A stretch of 64,000 bases of DNA from the NCBI RefSeq assembly GCF_003704095.1, contig NW_020843958.1, forward strand, positions 62,001-126,000, written 5' to 3'. This stretch comes from Pocillopora damicornis (Eukaryota). Made by a program: the position numbers. Shown here one piece after another: positions 45,001 to 51,000 of the stretch. Position 1 is the first letter of the stretch, and each line of letters starts with the position of its first letter.

Positions 45001-48000
45001 ATATATCCGGGAGGAATCCCTGCTTTTTTTGTTTACTTCCGTGTTGAAGAACTCCACGGGACTCCCGAAAGTATCGCAAGGAGACAACCTTGAAAAAATT
45101 TAAACAATCACGCTGCAAGCAAAAGTATACTTATTACTGACGTTCCTTTCTACTGATGAAAGGCTAATGTGCCAATTTTCGAAATGATAGTTCTCAGTCG
45201 TATAATAAATCGAAATTTTCGTTTTCAGTAAAATGGGAAAATGATGAATAATAAGCTATTTACATCCGTTTTAATCGAAGAAACCAAATAGAAATGGCTT
45301 TTTTCATAGCTCTCAAGGTTCACTGAGTAAAGTTTAATTAATATTCCAAAGTACATGGGTATTCCGTTTTCGAAAGTTCGAAGAGGAATGTTTATTTTAC
45401 TAGCTAAAGCTGTGTCGAAAGTTAACCTCACCAGGCAAGGCCCTCTGTGAATTAGCGAATCATGTGAGAGGTGCTTGCGCTTCCGTGAAGATTAAACTTT
45501 TGAAGTGCACGAAAGATTTATGATCGTTTTTCGGTTTTGATTTCCGAGCTTCCTTTTCGGGCCCGTGTTATTTTTTCCCTGTAACGTTATGATAATGCGA
45601 TTTTAACTGAAACAGACTTGACATGTAGCTCACGTGATACGAGATTTTGGCCTGTTGTTGTCGACCCGAAGCAAATAATTTGTCGACGAATGATTTACTG
45701 ACGGACAAATGTTCGGTTCGTCAGAATATAATTATCGTCCTTGCATGACTGAGTAATGAGTTAACTGGCCAGCAAGTTTACTTTAAGCAAAGGCTTAAAA
45801 AAAATGTCCTCGATAAAGAGACAAAATGAAAAGGCTAAAACTGCTATAGTGGCGCTAAAACAGGAAAATGGAAATGATGTCTGTGCGGACTGCAGCAAGC
45901 AAGGTAACAGTGTCAAGTTAAGTGAGATATGGTTAGATGTTCCCTAGTGTTATTAACGAGTTCACTAATGTATCCATACAAATGGCAATTAACTGCCGTG
46001 GGTAGCTGCGCAGAACCCTATTCTTGTAAAGGTTGTGAACGAAGCCCTAGAAAAAGGCGGCAAGGTTTCGAACAGACGAAATGTCTATTTGTTTTGAACG
46101 TCGGTGCCTCGACGAAAGCTGTGCTCTAATTAAGGTCGTTAATTAGAGGTGCCAGTTTCTTTCCGTCGTAGTACCATCATTTCGCTTTTGTAATAAGAGG
46201 AGTTTTATAAGCTCTCCAACAGGAAGGTAAATAAAGCCCCGCATTTGAACTGACAAACTGATCAACTCATAGGGCTCAGACCAAGAATTACTCTGAAGGA
46301 TGAACCGATGTGACACTTCCTAATGAGCTTAAGCTTTGAAATTAGCATATATGGTTTCCCATTACAGATCCTAGGTTCACTTGTCTGAAGAAAGGATTAT
46401 TCTTATGCCAAAACTGTGCTCAAGTCCACACTAGTTTTGGAGGTACAAATTCAAGGATCAAATCTATTGATCTGGGAAACTGGAATGACGAAACTCTACA
46501 GGTAATGTTCACCGCATTATTCAACTATTTGAATCACCTTAGAGACAAACTACGTATTTGCCTTGGATGTATTTCACGTCGTGCGATTACTTGACAATCA
46601 CGAATGAGAAAGTTGTAGTTTTTTTTTTATCCTAAAGGCCTTTCTAAATTATCCAGATTGATGATATTCATGAGATGTATTTGTGGAATCGCGCTCTAAG
46701 ATGCCGATTCGCGCTATTGAACATGCAATGTTTTCTTACGTTACGCACGAAGCCTTGTCACGTGACAACGGTCACGATATCAATAAATAGGGATTTCAAT
46801 TTCATTTGGGTTGGTTTATAAGCTATTAGTCTAACTGGATAACAGTTAACGTAAGCACCAAATCTACATTTAAATTGTACACACACTCAGAACAGCAACA
46901 CAAAACCCATTTCAATGACACTTCCTTGTTTAGTAGTCTGTAAAGATCTGTCTGTCAAGGAAGTGGTTTTGTTTAAGCGATTGACGTAGTTTGGGCAATA
47001 CTGCAAACTTTCGTGGTCTTGTTTCGCGGTTCATCAGAGAACCAGATTTCTACCATTCCTGCTGAAGTCATGACAGAGTAAACAATGCTACTCTATTCGC
47101 TAAGCAACGGAATCTTTCAGGCCCTTAAGGCGCCCATATGGTGGAGAAATTTGTTCATCTGCGGTGTAACTGCCAAAACCAGTTCCCCTCTGCTGGCAAA
47201 GCTAAAGAAAAACGGATAATTTTTCAGTGGCTTTTAATAGCAAATTGACTGAAAATTACAATGGAAATACTGATCGAGTTCCTTGCCACATACTCTGTTT
47301 TGAACTATACCTTGACCATTATTACCTGAAAGTGCTTTTACTCAAGTCTGCGGCTAATTTTCTTTGCCAATTTTGCTCCTTAAGAAATAATGCTCGTTAT
47401 TTATTCTCGCAAAGGAAAACTCGTTCGTGACTCTCGTTAAGAAAAACTTGCTGGAGTACGATTTCCCTTTATCTTCCGTAATTTCCTTGACGAACATCCG
47501 GCTTTGTTAAGTTACCTGAATTTGCAAGTTCTTCTTCGACGTGGAAAATTTTTCTTCTTCAACTTTATGAGCCTGAAAAGCTCATACTTAAATCTTTTAA
47601 AAAGAAAGATGTTGTACATTATAAATTGAAAAATCATAGGGTCCAAACCTACTAGTCTCTAACTATACGTATACTTTGACTTGGAAGTTATAACCAGTGT
47701 AGCTTTTTATGGCAACACTCACGAGGTAACTGGCGATAGCAGTTAAGCTAACATTCAAGAATTTGTGCTATTTGAATTCACTCAATGGTTTAATTTTACC
47801 AACATAGTAAAAACATTATACTATCGGAACTAAACCTCATATTTAAACAAACCTTTCAAAAACGTAACTATTCGAAATAATCCCATCTCTACGAGTGATT
47901 TTTTCCATATTCGCACGTAGAAGTCCTATCCGCTTGTTTCTGCTCGTTTCCAAATGTGGGTTTCATGTGGTTCCATGTGGTTTCAAATGACTTTATGTTG

Positions 48001-51000
48001 CGCAAAGAATGGGAATGAATTACGGTACTAGAGGAAATGATGCGAGTACTTCCCCCACCCCCTGTTGGTACGCGATGGATTCGCTGCATTCAAAATGACG
48101 GAAAAGAACAGAGTGGCGATATTAGAGTTGATGAAACAGCCTTCAAACAACACATGTGCGGATTGCGGAGCTCCAAGTAAGAATTTTAAGCTAAGGTCGT
48201 CATTCTACTTCGCCAGAGGGCCCACTCTGAAAATTTATTATGAATTTTCGTTTGGTTCCCTTCGAAACTTCCTGTAATGTTTTGTCGTGCAGATCCCGAA
48301 TGGTCATCGGCGTCAAAAGGGCTGTTCATTTGTATCACGTGCAGTGGAATTCATCGGAATTTAGGACCTCAGCTCTCTGTGGTCAAGAGTCTGAGGCTTG
48401 ATACTTGGACCGATGAAAAATTGAAGGTAAACTCGATATTAGTCGTGGTGTGTGCGACTTTCAGTGCGTCAAAGCGCTAAGATTCCTCTTAAAATCTTAC
48501 AATACCCCGTGTGTTCTCAGATATCACTGCTCTAAACCATCTTCTCCGATCATTTGACTTTATTAGTAAATTATGAAAAGGCTTAATTCAATTTTTTTGT
48601 CAGGTTTAGCCATGAGTTTCTGAAATCAACACTAACACATACATAGGATTTACGCCGAAAACCTGGAAAATACTCAGTTCGAATCTTTATCAACAAGGTC
48701 ACCACCTTGATTTTTTCGCTGTACTCCGCCTTAATTATCTCTGCCAGGAAAATCATCCATTGCATAAGCAGTGATGAGATATTTCAAAGAGTTTCCTATT
48801 CATTTCCTTGCTCAGCTGTAATTTATCAGAAATGTTTACAATGCAAAATTAACGTGACCATTTGTATTGATTACAGTTCAATTGACGTCTATAATTATCT
48901 TATTGAGTTTTCCGAAATAAATATTCAATATAACAGCTATTATGAACAACAAATAAATACAAAACGGTTGTGTTCAAATTCCATATTATGACTGGCACGA
49001 GAAGTCAACAGGAAACAAAGATAATCGTATAAGCTGTACTGTGACATTTGTTCTACGGACAAATATGTAGAAAATCTAAAAAATTATACGTATCAGAATT
49101 AATCAAGATAAAGAGAAAGGCCCAGAGTTGAACGGCAAAAATATTTTTTCATTTTATCTTAGAGCTAAGTGACTGCATAGTTTAGAATTAACATACTATT
49201 TATAGGATATAATTGTAACAAAGATATTTCTAGAAATAATTTACTAATGCCTGTTTCCTGAGGATTCTACATTTGTTTATAGCTTGTTAATTGTTTGTTG
49301 TGATTCAGTATTTTTTAAGGTTTAAAAACTTTCAATCCCATTTTATAGTTATTAATTATTATTATTTGTTTTGTATGATACACAAGAAAAATGTTGTTTA
49401 TGGTGATATCATGTAGGTGTATGTCCTCTTATAGATCATAACTAAGATCCAGCTAATTATATAAAATATTTTAATATGAAATATGAACATATTTGACATT
49501 TATCATTTTTTAACCCTATAACCCCTAAGAGTGAGTGGCATCTAATTTCTCCTTACAGTATCTGGGCTGAATCAAACATAATGGTTGGGAGAATAAAGGA
49601 AATGATCACAAACTAAAGAAGCTCTTGACTTGTCAAGCAAATTCTCCTTGTCAGCACATTAGTAAATGTGTTGATAACAACATAAAGAATATCAATATTG
49701 ATATTTGAAAGGAAATATATTCATATTACTGGGTCAAACTATTAGTAAGTCTACTTGTTCTCTTTTCTGTTTTCTTTTTTGAAACCCTTAAGCTGACTGC
49801 CAATTATTTATTTGACAAATACTTTCCTATTTTTAATTCTTGAAGTAACTATACACAATCCCCCAGTTAAAAAAATTGGAGAAATTGTCAACGGTTCGTC
49901 AACCAATAAAATTTAATCCTCATATATCTTCAGGTGTAGGAGTAATTTATCGCTTTTCATCTGAGATTTTCAATTGACTTCCTGGTATCACCTAGTCTCC
50001 TTTGCAGCCATTCATTTTTTGGATGTCACACAATTCTTTTGGAGGGAACATTGCTTGACATCCAAAGAATGGCTCCATAGGAGACTAGGTATCACCAGGT
50101 AGGCATTTATTGTAACAAAGCAAGTCTGCAGACTGATACTAAAACCAAAAATAACAACCAAACAACCAAACAACATGCCCAAAAAATTTTAACTGTAATT
50201 TAGTATTTTACATGTAAGGAAATCACCACAATTTATTTAAGTGGAGTGAAAAAGAAAAGAATTTTGCAACACAGTGACTGTCAACTGTTGTCTTAACCTT
50301 TTAACTCCCAAGATCTCATTATTAATTCTCTTTACTGTCTGTCAAGTGATTCTCATCATGTTAGTCTGGAGAATTTGGTTTTGGATTAATTAGTAATCCC
50401 ATAATTGATATTTTTCTTCATTCTCATCACTTGTAAGGAGAAATTCTGTCTTGGTCACTCATGGGGTTTAAAGGGTTAACTAAGACACTTTGGAAAATAA
50501 GATAAAAGGGAGCAGATTGAATAATTCAATAATGACATAATAGTAATTGAACAACCAGGCAATTTAAATGTGTTAGCTTGTTATCGAGTATACAGCAGAT
50601 CAGAAATTATTTTAATTATTTTCTTATACATTTATTGATGCATGTCTTTCAGATCAACTTTTTATGTACTGACATTTTTTAAGTTAACAATATTCTGTTT
50701 ACAAATAATTATAAATATTATCAGTCAGAGCACCAGTAATGTTTCAATAACGATCAAGCAGTCTTGGAATCTCGTTGATATTTGTCTGACATTGTCATGT
50801 AGAACTGAGTGGAGAGAGATATTGTACAGCAGGTAAATAAACTGTGGACCAGACGCCCTTGGTGTTAAGTCAAACAATTTCTTATAATAATCTTTTTTTC
50901 TTGCTCCTGTTGTTTTCTTTTCTTCTTCTTAGTTTATGGAAGAGCATGGTAATGCTAAGGGGAATGCTGTATGGGCCAAGAACGTCCCTCTTTGCTATCG

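What the first reader, a model, noticed from the sequence alone, without database searches (positions are those of the whole stretch)
45804..48426. ADAP gene with two interchangeable ArfGAP N-termini, one predicted catalytically dead
Seen: exons 1-2 exist twice (45804-45903 with 46368-46501, and 48095-48176 with 48293-48426). Both have the same intron phase, the same 134-nt second exon, their own ATG, intact splice sites and no stops, yet the sequences are deeply diverged. Both can splice in phase 0 to the shared exon at 50933. Established: ArfGAPs need CX2CX16CX2CX4R, with the Arg as catalytic finger. The proximal copy reads CITCSGIHR. The distal copy keeps all four Cys with exact spacing but reads CQNCAQVHT and also lacks the conserved Trp (PEW becomes PRF). 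Inference: an alternative-promoter switch produces an active GAP or a pseudo-GAP on the same phosphoinositide-binding dual-PH body, possibly an Arf effector or dominant negative. I know of no description of this for ADAP genes.
Basis: partly seen in the sequence, partly recalled or inferred. Interest (0 to 1): 0.75.

Follow-up and report, generated by a model that had tools for sequence, protein, structure and literature searches.

The report
Coral ADAP gene with alternative GAP heads
A coral ADAP (centaurin-alpha) gene carries two alternative copies of its first two coding exons, so one protein body can be made either with a normal Arf-GAP head or with a conserved head that lacks the catalytic arginine.

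Summary
Exons 1a/2a (45804-45903, 46368-46501) and 1b/2b (48095-48176, 48293-48426) are two old copies of the zinc-finger half of an ArfGAP domain. They have the same phases and the same 134-nt second exon, and both fit exon 3 at 50933.

Both forms already exist as public proteins. RefSeq Pocillopora verrucosa isoforms X1/X2 have the a-head and X3 the b-head, and Stylophora pistillata has X1 (a) and X2 (b). Orbicella faveolata X1 and Acropora muricata X1 also have the a-head. Intron-less assembled contigs encode full-length proteins of both kinds.

The a-head keeps all four zinc cysteines. It has Thr at the arginine-finger position in 10 of 12 a-like sequences, spanning both scleractinian suborders. 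All 23 other ArfGAP sequences compared have Arg.

The a-head evolves about as fast as the PH body, and the b-head much more slowly. Neighbouring intron sequence is not conserved.

So this is a real, conserved, expressed alternative head that by the family rule should be GAP-dead. Loss of activity, separate promoters and any effector or dominant-negative role remain untested. Nine literature searches found no description.

The parts
44497..44551 (+). Third alternative first coding exon (MGTTREEVIHLMRAEFLL, phase 1 donor G|GTATGT). RefSeq isoform X4 joins it to exon 2a, and that form lacks the first CxxC of the zinc finger.
   Evidence: Sequence; P0012 (XP_066026846, isoform X4).
45804..45903 (+). 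Exon 1a: ATG plus the first CxxC (CADC) of the a-type ArfGAP head, phase 1 donor.
   Evidence: identical to residues 1-33 of P0007/P0013 (RefSeq X1).
46368..46501 (+). Exon 2a, 134 nt: second CxxC followed by HT (Thr at the arginine-finger position), PRF in place of PEW, LGNW in place of LDTW.
   Evidence: Pfam ArfGap E 1e-10; 100% match in P0005, P0006 and P0007.
48095..48176 (+). Exon 1b: ATG plus CADC of the canonical b-type head, phase 1 donor. It lies inside the intron that follows exon 2a.
   Evidence: identical to the start of P0108 (RefSeq X3).
48293..48426 (+). Exon 2b, 134 nt: CITCSGIHR with the arginine finger, PEW, LDTW.
   Evidence: Pfam ArfGap E 2.5e-16; 84-100% identical in anthozoan ADAP proteins.
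50933..51024 (+). Shared exon 3 (FMEEHGNAKGNAVWAKNVPLCYRRPKPSDA): start of the common C-terminal half of the ArfGAP domain, with a phase 0 acceptor.
51654..51736 (+). Shared exon 4 (VLREQWIRAKYERTEFIDGAPEPSYLT): end of the ArfGAP domain.
51959..54223 (+). Shared exons 5-9, encoding PH1, the linker and PH2. Visible exons are about 51959-52071, 52497-52643, 53177-53260, 53823-53885 and ...54035-54223. The 5' part of the last one falls in the N run 53935-54034, which was left unfilled.
   Evidence: tblastn of P0013 and P0108 against the window; two PH domains in Pfam.
54760..54863 (+). Last coding exon, copy 1 (EMKTTLKAMKDSKKKSFSRLRSLSMSKNQDEDSP, then the stop), used by RefSeq X1, X3, X4 and X5.
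55193..55296 (+). Last coding exon, copy 2 (EMKITLKAMRDSKKRNFVGLRRLSLSKNHDEDSP, then the stop), used by RefSeq X2. It is part of a 433-434-bp tandem duplication at 90-91% identity.

Best explanation
[quoted passage not shown] An ancient tandem duplication of its first two coding exons left two cassettes. Each cassette has its own ATG and encodes the zinc-finger half of the ArfGAP domain. Transcripts use one cassette or the other and join it in phase 0 to exon 3, so both proteins share the rest of the GAP domain and both PH domains. Cassette b is the canonical, extremely conserved head with the arginine finger. Cassette a keeps the four zinc-binding cysteines and the overall ArfGAP signature but has Thr where the catalytic Arg should be, and this Thr is fixed across scleractinian corals. 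Shown: the exons, the spliced a and b products, and their conservation. Inferred: the a-isoform cannot stimulate GTP hydrolysis on Arf and carries out the GAP-independent functions of ADAP (phosphoinositide-dependent scaffolding, perhaps holding Arf-GTP or competing with the b-form), and the choice is made mainly by which first exon or promoter is used. Joining 2a to 2b shifts the frame and stops translation, which keeps the two heads mutually exclusive at the protein level.
For: Public proteins equal the a-model. P0007/P0013, RefSeq P. verrucosa isoform X1 (404 aa), reads 1a+2a+FMEEHGN... and carries ArfGap plus two PH domains. X2 has the same head with the other last exon. The b-model is P0108, RefSeq isoform X3 (398 aa), together with P. 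meandrina CAH3039324 and Stylophora X2.

There is evidence of splicing. The exact P0007 sequence is recorded on 4 assembled contigs of at most 3450 nt. Stylophora-like a-type proteins of 407 aa sit on contigs of 1918-2839 nt, and b-type proteins of 386-415 aa on contigs of 2278-2708 nt. The same coding sequence spans about 9 kb in the window, so these contigs must be intron-less.

The a-heads are conserved with Thr in Stylophora X1, Orbicella faveolata X1, Acropora muricata X1 and the unnamed sequences P0056, P0008, P0024, P0025, P0026 and P0058. That is T in 10 of 12 a-like sequences, read. The other two are P0027 (R) and P0034 (G). Arg is present in 23 of 23 non-a sequences in the table. The named species fall in both scleractinian suborders.

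The a-head is under constraint. Identity to Pocillopora for the a-head versus the body is 88.5 vs 90.8% (Stylophora), 66 vs 79% (Orbicella) and 50 vs 62% (Acropora). For the b-head versus the body it is 100 vs 90.8, 90 vs 78.5 (Oculina), 85 vs 63 (Montipora) and 80 vs 57% (Nematostella). In the genomic ORF P0008 the exon is 36 of 44 identical to the window, but the translated downstream intron flank is only 2 of 30.

The four Cys, H54, K65, S66 and W72 are invariant in all 14 aligned a and b proteins.

P0006 is 1a+2a joined to exon 2b out of frame, and it ends at the stop predicted from the window.

A b-type contig protein (P0113) extends 17 codons upstream of the 1b ATG, collinear with the window sequence there.

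The family rule CX2CX16CX2CX4R, with the Arg required for activity, is from PMC2542466 (passages). ADAP1 R49K is GAP-deficient yet keeps a migration function (PMC6892435, passages).
Against: No activity, binding or expression measurement was possible here.

One a-like exon from an unnamed source keeps Arg (P0027) and one has Gly (P0034), so loss of Arg is not universal to the a-lineage.

The Trp-to-Phe/Tyr and Asp-to-Gly changes are not unique to a-heads. Tyr occurs in P0032 and P0036, and Gly in P0036, and all of these have Arg (table).

AlphaFold2 gave low confidence for the GAP domain of both the a-form (block means 41-71) and the b-form control (36-62). Folding of the a-head is therefore neither supported nor questioned.

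Among the cluster members listed, no assembled contig carried a full-length Pocillopora b-type protein; that form is represented only by gene models.

Contig counts are not expression levels. RefSeq X-models are automatic predictions.
Confidence: 0.7

Rival explanations
1. The a-head is still an active Arf GAP that works without the canonical arginine finger, for example using another residue or a co-factor, so the two isoforms differ in regulation or substrate rather than in being active versus inactive.
For: The a-head keeps the zinc finger and the ArfGap profile match. Its constraint is similar to that of the PH body. An Arg is conserved nine residues after the Thr (SRIKS/SRTKS/ARIKS) in the a-heads. 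Recalled, not tested here: some GAP families for other small GTPases work without an arginine finger.
Against: That downstream Arg is common in ordinary Arg-finger ArfGAPs as well (ISRVKS and ISRIKS in many rows of the table), so it is not a relocated finger. The family definition requires the Arg (PMC2542466 passages), and even the conservative R49K change disables ADAP1 GAP-dependent phenotypes (PMC6892435 passages). All 23 non-a sequences compared keep Arg.
Confidence: 0.12
2. The a-cassette has taken on a new role in binding a partner other than Arf, or in changing localisation or stability. On this view the missing Arg is a by-product of relaxed catalytic constraint and does not in itself define the isoform's role.
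For: The a-head evolves 1.25 to 1.6 times faster than the body, whereas the b-head is nearly frozen. Several a-specific residues are conserved, such as the extra Cys in F(T/A)C(L/I) and the HTSF motif. Solved ADAP1 structures include a complex with the KIF13B FHA domain (3fm8 and 3mdb, listed), so ADAP1 has non-Arf protein partners; that the FHA domain contacts the GAP domain is recalled, not read from any call.
Against: Nothing here identifies a partner. This rival overlaps with the main explanation rather than excluding it.
Confidence: 0.2
3. Exons 1a/2a are a decaying partial duplicate that is transcribed and sometimes spliced but has no protein-level function. At most, use of the upstream start lowers output of the canonical form through frame-shifted 2a-2b transcripts.
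For: One assembled contig shows the unproductive 2a-to-2b junction with a premature stop (P0006). RefSeq also models odd variants: X4 lacks the first CxxC and X5 uses another frame of exon 1a.
Against: The reading frames are open and the four Cys are kept in every a-type sequence from four named genera in both suborders. The exon is 36 of 44 identical against 2 of 30 for the intron flank. The a-exon-2 peptides form one clade with support 95/93. Full-length productive a-type proteins sit on several intron-less contigs.
Confidence: 0.04

Closest known systems
Human ADAP1 / centaurin-alpha-1 (PDB 3feh, 3lju, 3fm8, 3mdb)
   Same: The architecture is the same, ArfGAP followed by two PH domains. The coral a-isoform aligns over residues 7-367 at E 3e-83. 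Its model matches these chains best (TM about 0.6, 34-36% identity).
   Different: The human protein in these entries has a single canonical head, CSGIHR. The coral gene offers two heads, one with Thr aligned to that Arg (alignment).
Engineered GAP-deficient ADAP1 R49K (PMC6892435, passages read)
   Same: The catalytic Arg is removed while the PH body is kept. The mutant still promotes migration but not invasion, which shows that ADAP1 has separable GAP-dependent and GAP-independent functions.
   Different: It is a laboratory point mutant in a mammalian protein. The coral a-head is natural and ancient, has Thr rather than Lys, and differs from the b-head at 44 of 72 aligned positions.
Canonical anthozoan ADAP b-isoforms (Nematostella, Porites, Montipora, Oculina, Desmophyllum)
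   Same: Same gene family and same body. The b-head of the window is 80-100% identical to theirs.
   Different: All of them carry HR. They show what the a-head has departed from.
Arginine-less pseudo-GAP domains of other GAP families, such as RhoGAP-like domains (recalled, not tested here)
   Same: A GAP fold is retained while the catalytic Arg is lost, and such domains are usually thought to act as binding modules.
   Different: Those are whole genes or fixed domains. Here the dead and live versions are alternative exon cassettes of one gene. A search for 'pseudoGAP' together with 'ArfGAP' returned 0 papers.
Mutually exclusive tandem-duplicated exons (general phenomenon, recalled)
   Same: Homologous neighbouring exons have the same length and phase, one of them is used per transcript, and including both breaks the frame.
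   Different: The unit here is a pair of exons that includes the start codon, so the choice probably depends on the transcription start as well as on splicing.

Membership tests
ArfGAP domain (Pfam PF01412) | Profile match above the curated cut-off | tested here: met
   Exon 2a alone scores 42.2 bits and exon 2b 60.2 bits (cut-off 28.7). The full a-isoform P0007 scores 108.5 bits over residues 14-127.
ArfGAP domain (Pfam PF01412) | C4 zinc finger with spacing CX2CX16CX2C | tested here: met
   Both heads have it. C27, C30, C47 and C50 of P0007 are invariant in all 14 aligned a and b proteins. The motif is as defined in PMC2542466 (passages).
ArfGAP domain (Pfam PF01412) | Invariant Arg four residues after the last Cys (CX4R), required for activity | tested here: not met
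   This holds for the a-head: it has Thr in the window and in 10 of 12 a-like sequences. The b-head meets the feature, and Arg is present in 23 of 23 non-a sequences (table).
ArfGAP domain (Pfam PF01412) | Stimulates GTP hydrolysis on an Arf | not testable with these tools
   This needs a biochemical assay of both isoforms.
ADAP subfamily (ArfGAP with dual PH domains) | N-terminal ArfGAP domain followed by two PH domains in a protein of about 380-400 aa | tested here: met
   Pfam finds ArfGap at 14-127 and two PH stretches, at 142-234 and 261-360, in P0007. The exons map to the window.
ADAP subfamily (ArfGAP with dual PH domains) | Full-length similarity to solved ADAP1 | tested here: met
   phmmer gives E 3e-83 to 3feh over the whole length. 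The top five Foldseek hits are all centaurin-alpha-1.
ADAP subfamily (ArfGAP with dual PH domains) | High-affinity PIP3 / IP4 binding by the PH domains | not testable with these tools
   Not assessed. The body is shared by both isoforms.
Alternative, mutually exclusive duplicated exon cassette | Homologous neighbouring exons with the same phase and length | tested here: met
   Both second exons are 134 nt, both first exons end in phase 1, and 2a/2b are 17 of 44 identical without gaps.
Alternative, mutually exclusive duplicated exon cassette | Products contain one cassette or the other | tested here: met
   a-only proteins are P0007, P0010, P0016, P0017, P0022, P0056, P0057 and P0090. b-only proteins are P0059, P0108, P0110, P0112 and P0113.
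Alternative, mutually exclusive duplicated exon cassette | Including both cassettes is unproductive | tested here: met
   Reading exon 2b after 2a gives IPNGHRRQKGCSFVSRAVEFIGI followed by a stop. This is exactly the tail of the contig protein P0006.
Pseudo-GAP (folded but catalytically dead GAP domain) | Domain still folds | tested here: inconclusive
   AlphaFold2 confidence in the GAP region was low both for the a-form (41-71) and for the b-form control (36-62), using the same 14-row alignment.
Pseudo-GAP (folded but catalytically dead GAP domain) | Activity is lost | not testable with these tools
   This is inferred only from the missing Arg.

The most novel reading that the evidence does not exclude
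Scleractinian corals have kept a naturally arginine-less ArfGAP head since before their two suborders split, as a switchable alternative to the canonical head of the same ADAP gene. The a-isoform would be a true pseudo-GAP that binds phosphoinositide membranes and Arf-GTP without switching Arf off, acting as an Arf effector or as an antagonist of the b-isoform. If so, it would be a natural separation-of-function allele for the old question of whether Arf GAPs act as terminators or as effectors.
Probability: 0.3. Interest if true: 0.65.

Novelty: new variant of a known kind. Interest (0 to 1): 0.5.

Why it matters
Arf GAPs have long been debated as signal terminators or as effectors, and ADAP1 has both GAP-dependent and GAP-independent roles in mammalian cells (PMC6892435, PMC6724607, passages). 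This coral gene appears to encode that separation itself: the same lipid-binding body with either a live head or a probably dead one, and the dead version is kept under selection in both coral suborders. That gives a simple natural system for asking what an ADAP does without catalysis. It is also a clear example of a duplicated exon cassette that toggles a catalytic residue. For coral biology it flags isoform-level regulation of Arf6-type membrane traffic that gene-level expression studies would miss. The scope is modest: the family, the fold and the isoform models are all known, and the function is still inferred.

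Tried and rejected
1. Structure prediction to ask whether the a-head folds. The a-form model had mean pLDDT 67.7, with the GAP region at 41-71. The b-form control with the same 14 sequences gave 69.8, with the GAP region at 36-62. The low confidence therefore reflects the shallow alignment and says nothing about the a-head.

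2. A tree of exon-2 peptides to date the duplication. It used 32 rows chosen from the sequences fetched; near-duplicates P0007, P0056, P0026, P0058, P0066, P0070, P0109 and P0110 were left out. Only 44 columns were available. The a-clade (95/93) and the b-clade (100/96) are each recovered, but their relation to each other and to other ADAP-like sequences is unresolved. The root is arbitrary and P0034 sits on a long branch. No origin date beyond 'before the two scleractinian suborders split' is claimed.

3. A search for a second copy of exon 3, or any further ArfGAP exon, between 46501 and 48095 or elsewhere in the window. None was found. A separate small gene starting at 1a is therefore rejected.

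4. An upstream plus-strand gene running into exon 1a. The nearest Pfam-recognisable upstream gene found is an amino-acid transporter on the minus strand, ending near 38091. This idea is rejected.

5. dN/dS between species. This was not possible, because no coral nucleotide sequences other than the window were available. Protein-level rates and the contrast between exon and intron flank were used instead.

6. Complex prediction with an Arf. It was not run, because no coral Arf sequence was in hand and binding is not claimed as shown.

7. The taxon of the Arg-keeping a-like exon P0027 and of the Gly-bearing P0034. Both are unnamed in their sources and were not pursued.

Exon peptides were searched singly, and full-length comparisons used proteins returned by the databases.

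Full report
**What is in the sequence**

The region was read directly. Exon 1a runs from an ATG at 45804 to 45903 (100 nt) and ends AAG|GTAACA in phase 1. Exon 2a runs from 46368 (after ttacag) to 46501 (134 nt) and ends CAG|GTAATG in phase 0. Exon 1b starts at the ATG at 48095 and ends at 48176 (82 nt, phase 1). Exon 2b is 48293-48426 (134 nt).

Exon 3 begins at 50933 behind cttag and reads FMEEHGNAKGN. Either second exon therefore joins it in frame.

The four exon peptides have no stops. Head a reads ...CADCSKQ-D-PRFTCLKKGLFLCQNCAQVHTSFGG...NWNDETLQ. Head b reads ...CADCGAP-N-PEWSSASKGLFICITCSGIHRNLGP...TWTDEKLK.

The only addition is that the split codon is Asp in a and Asn in b.

**This is not a chance resemblance**

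- Exon 2a alone matches Pfam ArfGap at E 1e-10 (42.2 bits against a cut-off of 28.7), and exon 2b at 2.5e-16.
- In a tblastn of the four peptides against the whole window, the only hits below E 0.2, apart from each peptide matching its own exon, were the reciprocal ones. These are 2a/2b with 17 of 44 identical without gaps (E 2.6e-9), and 1a/1b with 10 of 25 and 10 of 22 identical.
- There is no third copy. No second copy of exon 3 lies between the cassettes.
- The duplication is old. 93 of 198 aligned coding bases are identical, and the proportion of synonymous differences is 0.89, which is saturated. No DNA-level repeat joins the two blocks.

**The gene**

Downstream exons encode the rest of the ArfGAP domain and two PH domains. 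A database protein with the a-head aligns with human centaurin-alpha-1 (ADAP1, PDB 3feh) over its whole length at E 3e-83. In that alignment the coral Thr lies under the Arg of the human CSGIHR. A model of that protein finds the ADAP1 structures as its five best Foldseek hits.

One ADAP exon (PH2) runs into the N run at 53935-54034. That run was left as it is.

The nearest Pfam-recognisable upstream gene found is an amino-acid transporter on the other strand, ending near 38091. Nothing on the plus strand runs into exon 1a.

**Are both heads used?**

The exon peptides were searched one at a time, and full-length comparisons used proteins that the databases returned.

The search with exon 2a (longer proteins allowed) gave 4 proteins among 15 candidates. 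[quoted passage not shown] It reads exactly 1a + 2a + FMEEHGN... + two PH domains.

Its 90% cluster has 20 members, of which 15 were listed and 8 carry names. The named and notable members are:

- P. verrucosa X2: the same a-head with the other last exon.
- X4: a further upstream first exon (window 44497-44551) joined to 2a.
- X5: another donor and another reading frame of exon 1a.
- Stylophora pistillata isoform X1, also a-type.

The exact X1 protein is recorded on 4 assembled contigs of at most 3450 nt. Stylophora-like a-type proteins of 407 aa are on contigs of 1918-2839 nt. The same coding sequence spans about 9 kb with introns in the window, so these contigs must come from spliced RNA. 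That last step is an inference.

The search with exon 2b gave 16 proteins among 27 candidates; I fetched 13 of them. The cluster of the best hit holds P. verrucosa isoform X3, P. meandrina CAH3039324 and Stylophora isoform X2. All three are 1b + 2b + the same body. The cluster also holds three assembled-contig proteins of 386-415 aa, which are Stylophora-like. No assembled contig with a full-length Pocillopora b-type protein was among the listed members. In Pocillopora, therefore, the b-form is represented here only by gene models.

One b-type contig protein (P0113) extends 17 codons upstream of the 1b ATG, and this extension resembles the window's sequence there. That fits a transcription start inside the intron after 2a but does not prove a separate promoter.

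One contig protein, P0006, is 1a + 2a followed by IPNGHRRQKGCSFVSRAVEFIGI. This is exon 2b read one frame off, and it ends at the stop the window predicts. The 2a-to-2b junction therefore occurs and is unproductive, and the two heads exclude each other at the protein level.

**How widely is the a-head kept?**

Scoring region 1-78 of the database a-protein found 5 proteins among 8 candidates. They include Acropora muricata isoform X1 (398 aa) and an unnamed 400-aa protein whose cluster contains Orbicella faveolata isoform X1.

A full HMMER pass with exon 2a over 1.84 billion representatives gave 33 hits at E 1e-3 or better; I read 20 of them. The best hits are single-exon genomic ORFs from unnamed sources. 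They match from the acceptor to the donor and not beyond.

I read the arginine-finger position in twelve a-like sequences:

- Thr in ten: Pocillopora, Stylophora, Orbicella, Acropora, P0056, P0008, P0024, P0025, P0026 and P0058.
- Arg in one: P0027.
- Gly in one: P0034.

All 23 non-a sequences in the table have Arg. NCBI taxonomy places Acropora in suborder Refertina and Pocillopora and Orbicella in Vacatina. The Thr-bearing a-head therefore predates the split of the two scleractinian suborders.

Whether sea anemones have an a-head could not be tested. Only a b-type Nematostella protein was returned, and no eukaryotic genome collection was available.

**Constraint**

Identity to Pocillopora, head versus body:

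| Head | Species | Head identity (%) | Body identity (%) |
|---|---|---|---|
| a | Stylophora | 88.5 | 90.8 |
| a | Orbicella | 66 | 79 |
| a | Acropora | 50 | 62 |
| b | Stylophora | 100 | 90.8 |
| b | Oculina | 90 | 78.5 |
| b | Montipora | 85 | 63 |
| b | Nematostella | 80 | 57 |

The a-head changes somewhat faster than the already constrained PH body. The canonical b-head is nearly frozen.

The a-head is far from neutral. In P0008 the exon is 36 of 44 identical to the window, while the translated intron just after the donor is 2 of 30. The four cysteines, His54, Lys65, Ser66 and Trp72 are invariant in all 14 aligned a and b proteins. The a-type exon-2 peptides form one clade (support 95/93), as do the b-type ones (100/96). 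With 44 columns the tree cannot say how the two are related.

**What it most likely does**

The ArfGAP family is defined by CX2CX16CX2CX4R, with the Arg required for activity (PMC2542466, passages). The Arg is inserted into the nucleotide site of Arf (PMC6724607, passages). In mammalian ADAP1 even the R49K change gives a GAP-deficient protein that still promotes migration but not invasion, so ADAP1 has separable GAP-dependent and GAP-independent roles (PMC6892435, passages).

By that rule the b-isoform is a normal Arf GAP, and the a-isoform has the same lipid-binding body with a head that cannot catalyse. I take that as the best explanation, with confidence 0.7.

- Shown: the exons, both spliced products, the conserved Thr and the purifying selection.
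- Inferred: loss of activity, choice by promoter, and any role as an Arf-GTP holder or as a competitor of the b-form.

Several caveats apply:

- The nomenclature paper says that ADAPs appeared to lack GAP activity in vitro.
- One a-like exon keeps Arg.
They therefore add little.
- AlphaFold2 was uninformative, because the GAP region scored low in both the a-model and the b-control.

**Novelty**

The isoforms themselves are not new as records. RefSeq already lists them as automatic models in at least P. verrucosa and S. pistillata, with a-type models in O. faveolata and A. muricata as well.

I found no paper that describes them, or any natural arginine-less ArfGAP isoform, in nine full-text searches. 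'pseudoGAP' with 'ArfGAP' returned 0 papers, and so did 'Arf-GAP with dual PH' with 'coral'.

I rate it a new variant of a known kind, of moderate interest (0.5). It is a neat natural toggle between live and dead catalysis in a well-known family, kept by selection, but its function is still untested.

Noticed in passing
window 54612-55004 and 55046-55438: The last coding exon of the same ADAP gene is also duplicated, as a tandem unit of about 433-434 bp at 90-91% identity. RefSeq X1 ends with copy 1 (54760-54863) and X2 with copy 2 (55193-55296). The two peptides are 76% identical by tblastn. dS is about 0.10 and dN about 0.14 over 33 codons. This duplication is much younger than the head duplication.
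   Followed up: partly
window 44497-44551: A third alternative first coding exon (MGTTREEVIHLMRAEFLL, phase 1). RefSeq isoform X4 joins it to exon 2a. That product would lack the first CxxC of the zinc finger. Whether it is supported by transcripts is unknown.
   Followed up: partly
window 45804-45920: RefSeq isoform X5 starts MEMMSVRTAASKVTVSN. This is another frame of exon 1a, using a donor about 15 nt further downstream before joining 2a. It is probably a minor or artefactual model.
   Followed up: no
junction 46501>48293: An assembled contig protein (P0006, 101 aa) shows exon 2a spliced to exon 2b out of frame, with a stop after 23 codons. A 342-aa protein that begins inside exon 2b (P0020) comes from a contig of the same length, 1485 nt, and is possibly the same molecule.
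   Followed up: yes
proteins P0027 and P0034 (unnamed sources): Two a-like exon-2 ORFs group with the a-clade but have Arg (P0027, a cluster of 29 members) or Gly (P0034) at the finger position. They may mark lineages from before the Arg-to-Thr change, or lineages with a different change. Their organisms are not named, and I did not pursue them.
   Followed up: partly
window 58844-60121 (+): A long Lys/Glu-rich open frame of 425 codons runs into the N run at 59974. It contains a 132-nt unit repeated 4.2 times at 59234-59787. Neither it nor two further downstream frames had a Pfam match. It is probably a separate low-complexity gene downstream of ADAP.
   Followed up: partly
window 9253-10452 (-), 21260-24673 (+), 30970-38091 (-): Neighbouring genes by Pfam on long open frames: a WD40 plus SOCS-box protein, a discoidin (F5/8 type C) + CUB + SUEL-lectin protein, and an Aa_trans amino-acid transporter.
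   Followed up: no
window 29251, 53935, 59974, 61189, 62378: There are five runs of exactly 100 N. The run at 53935-54034 removes the 5' part of an ADAP PH2 exon, about 36 codons of the database proteins. All five runs were left unfilled.
   Followed up: no
window 50431-50479 and 52395-52443: A 49-nt direct repeat at 82% identity lies in two ADAP introns. It is probably a fragment of a small interspersed element.
   Followed up: no
P. meandrina records CAH3039326 and CAH3039324: In that species' deposited annotation the a-head is a separate 79-aa partial 'unnamed protein product' and the b-form is a full gene model. That model reads through the donor of the penultimate exon (tail GWSNFLVF...). 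The locus is thus annotated inconsistently between assemblies.
   Followed up: no
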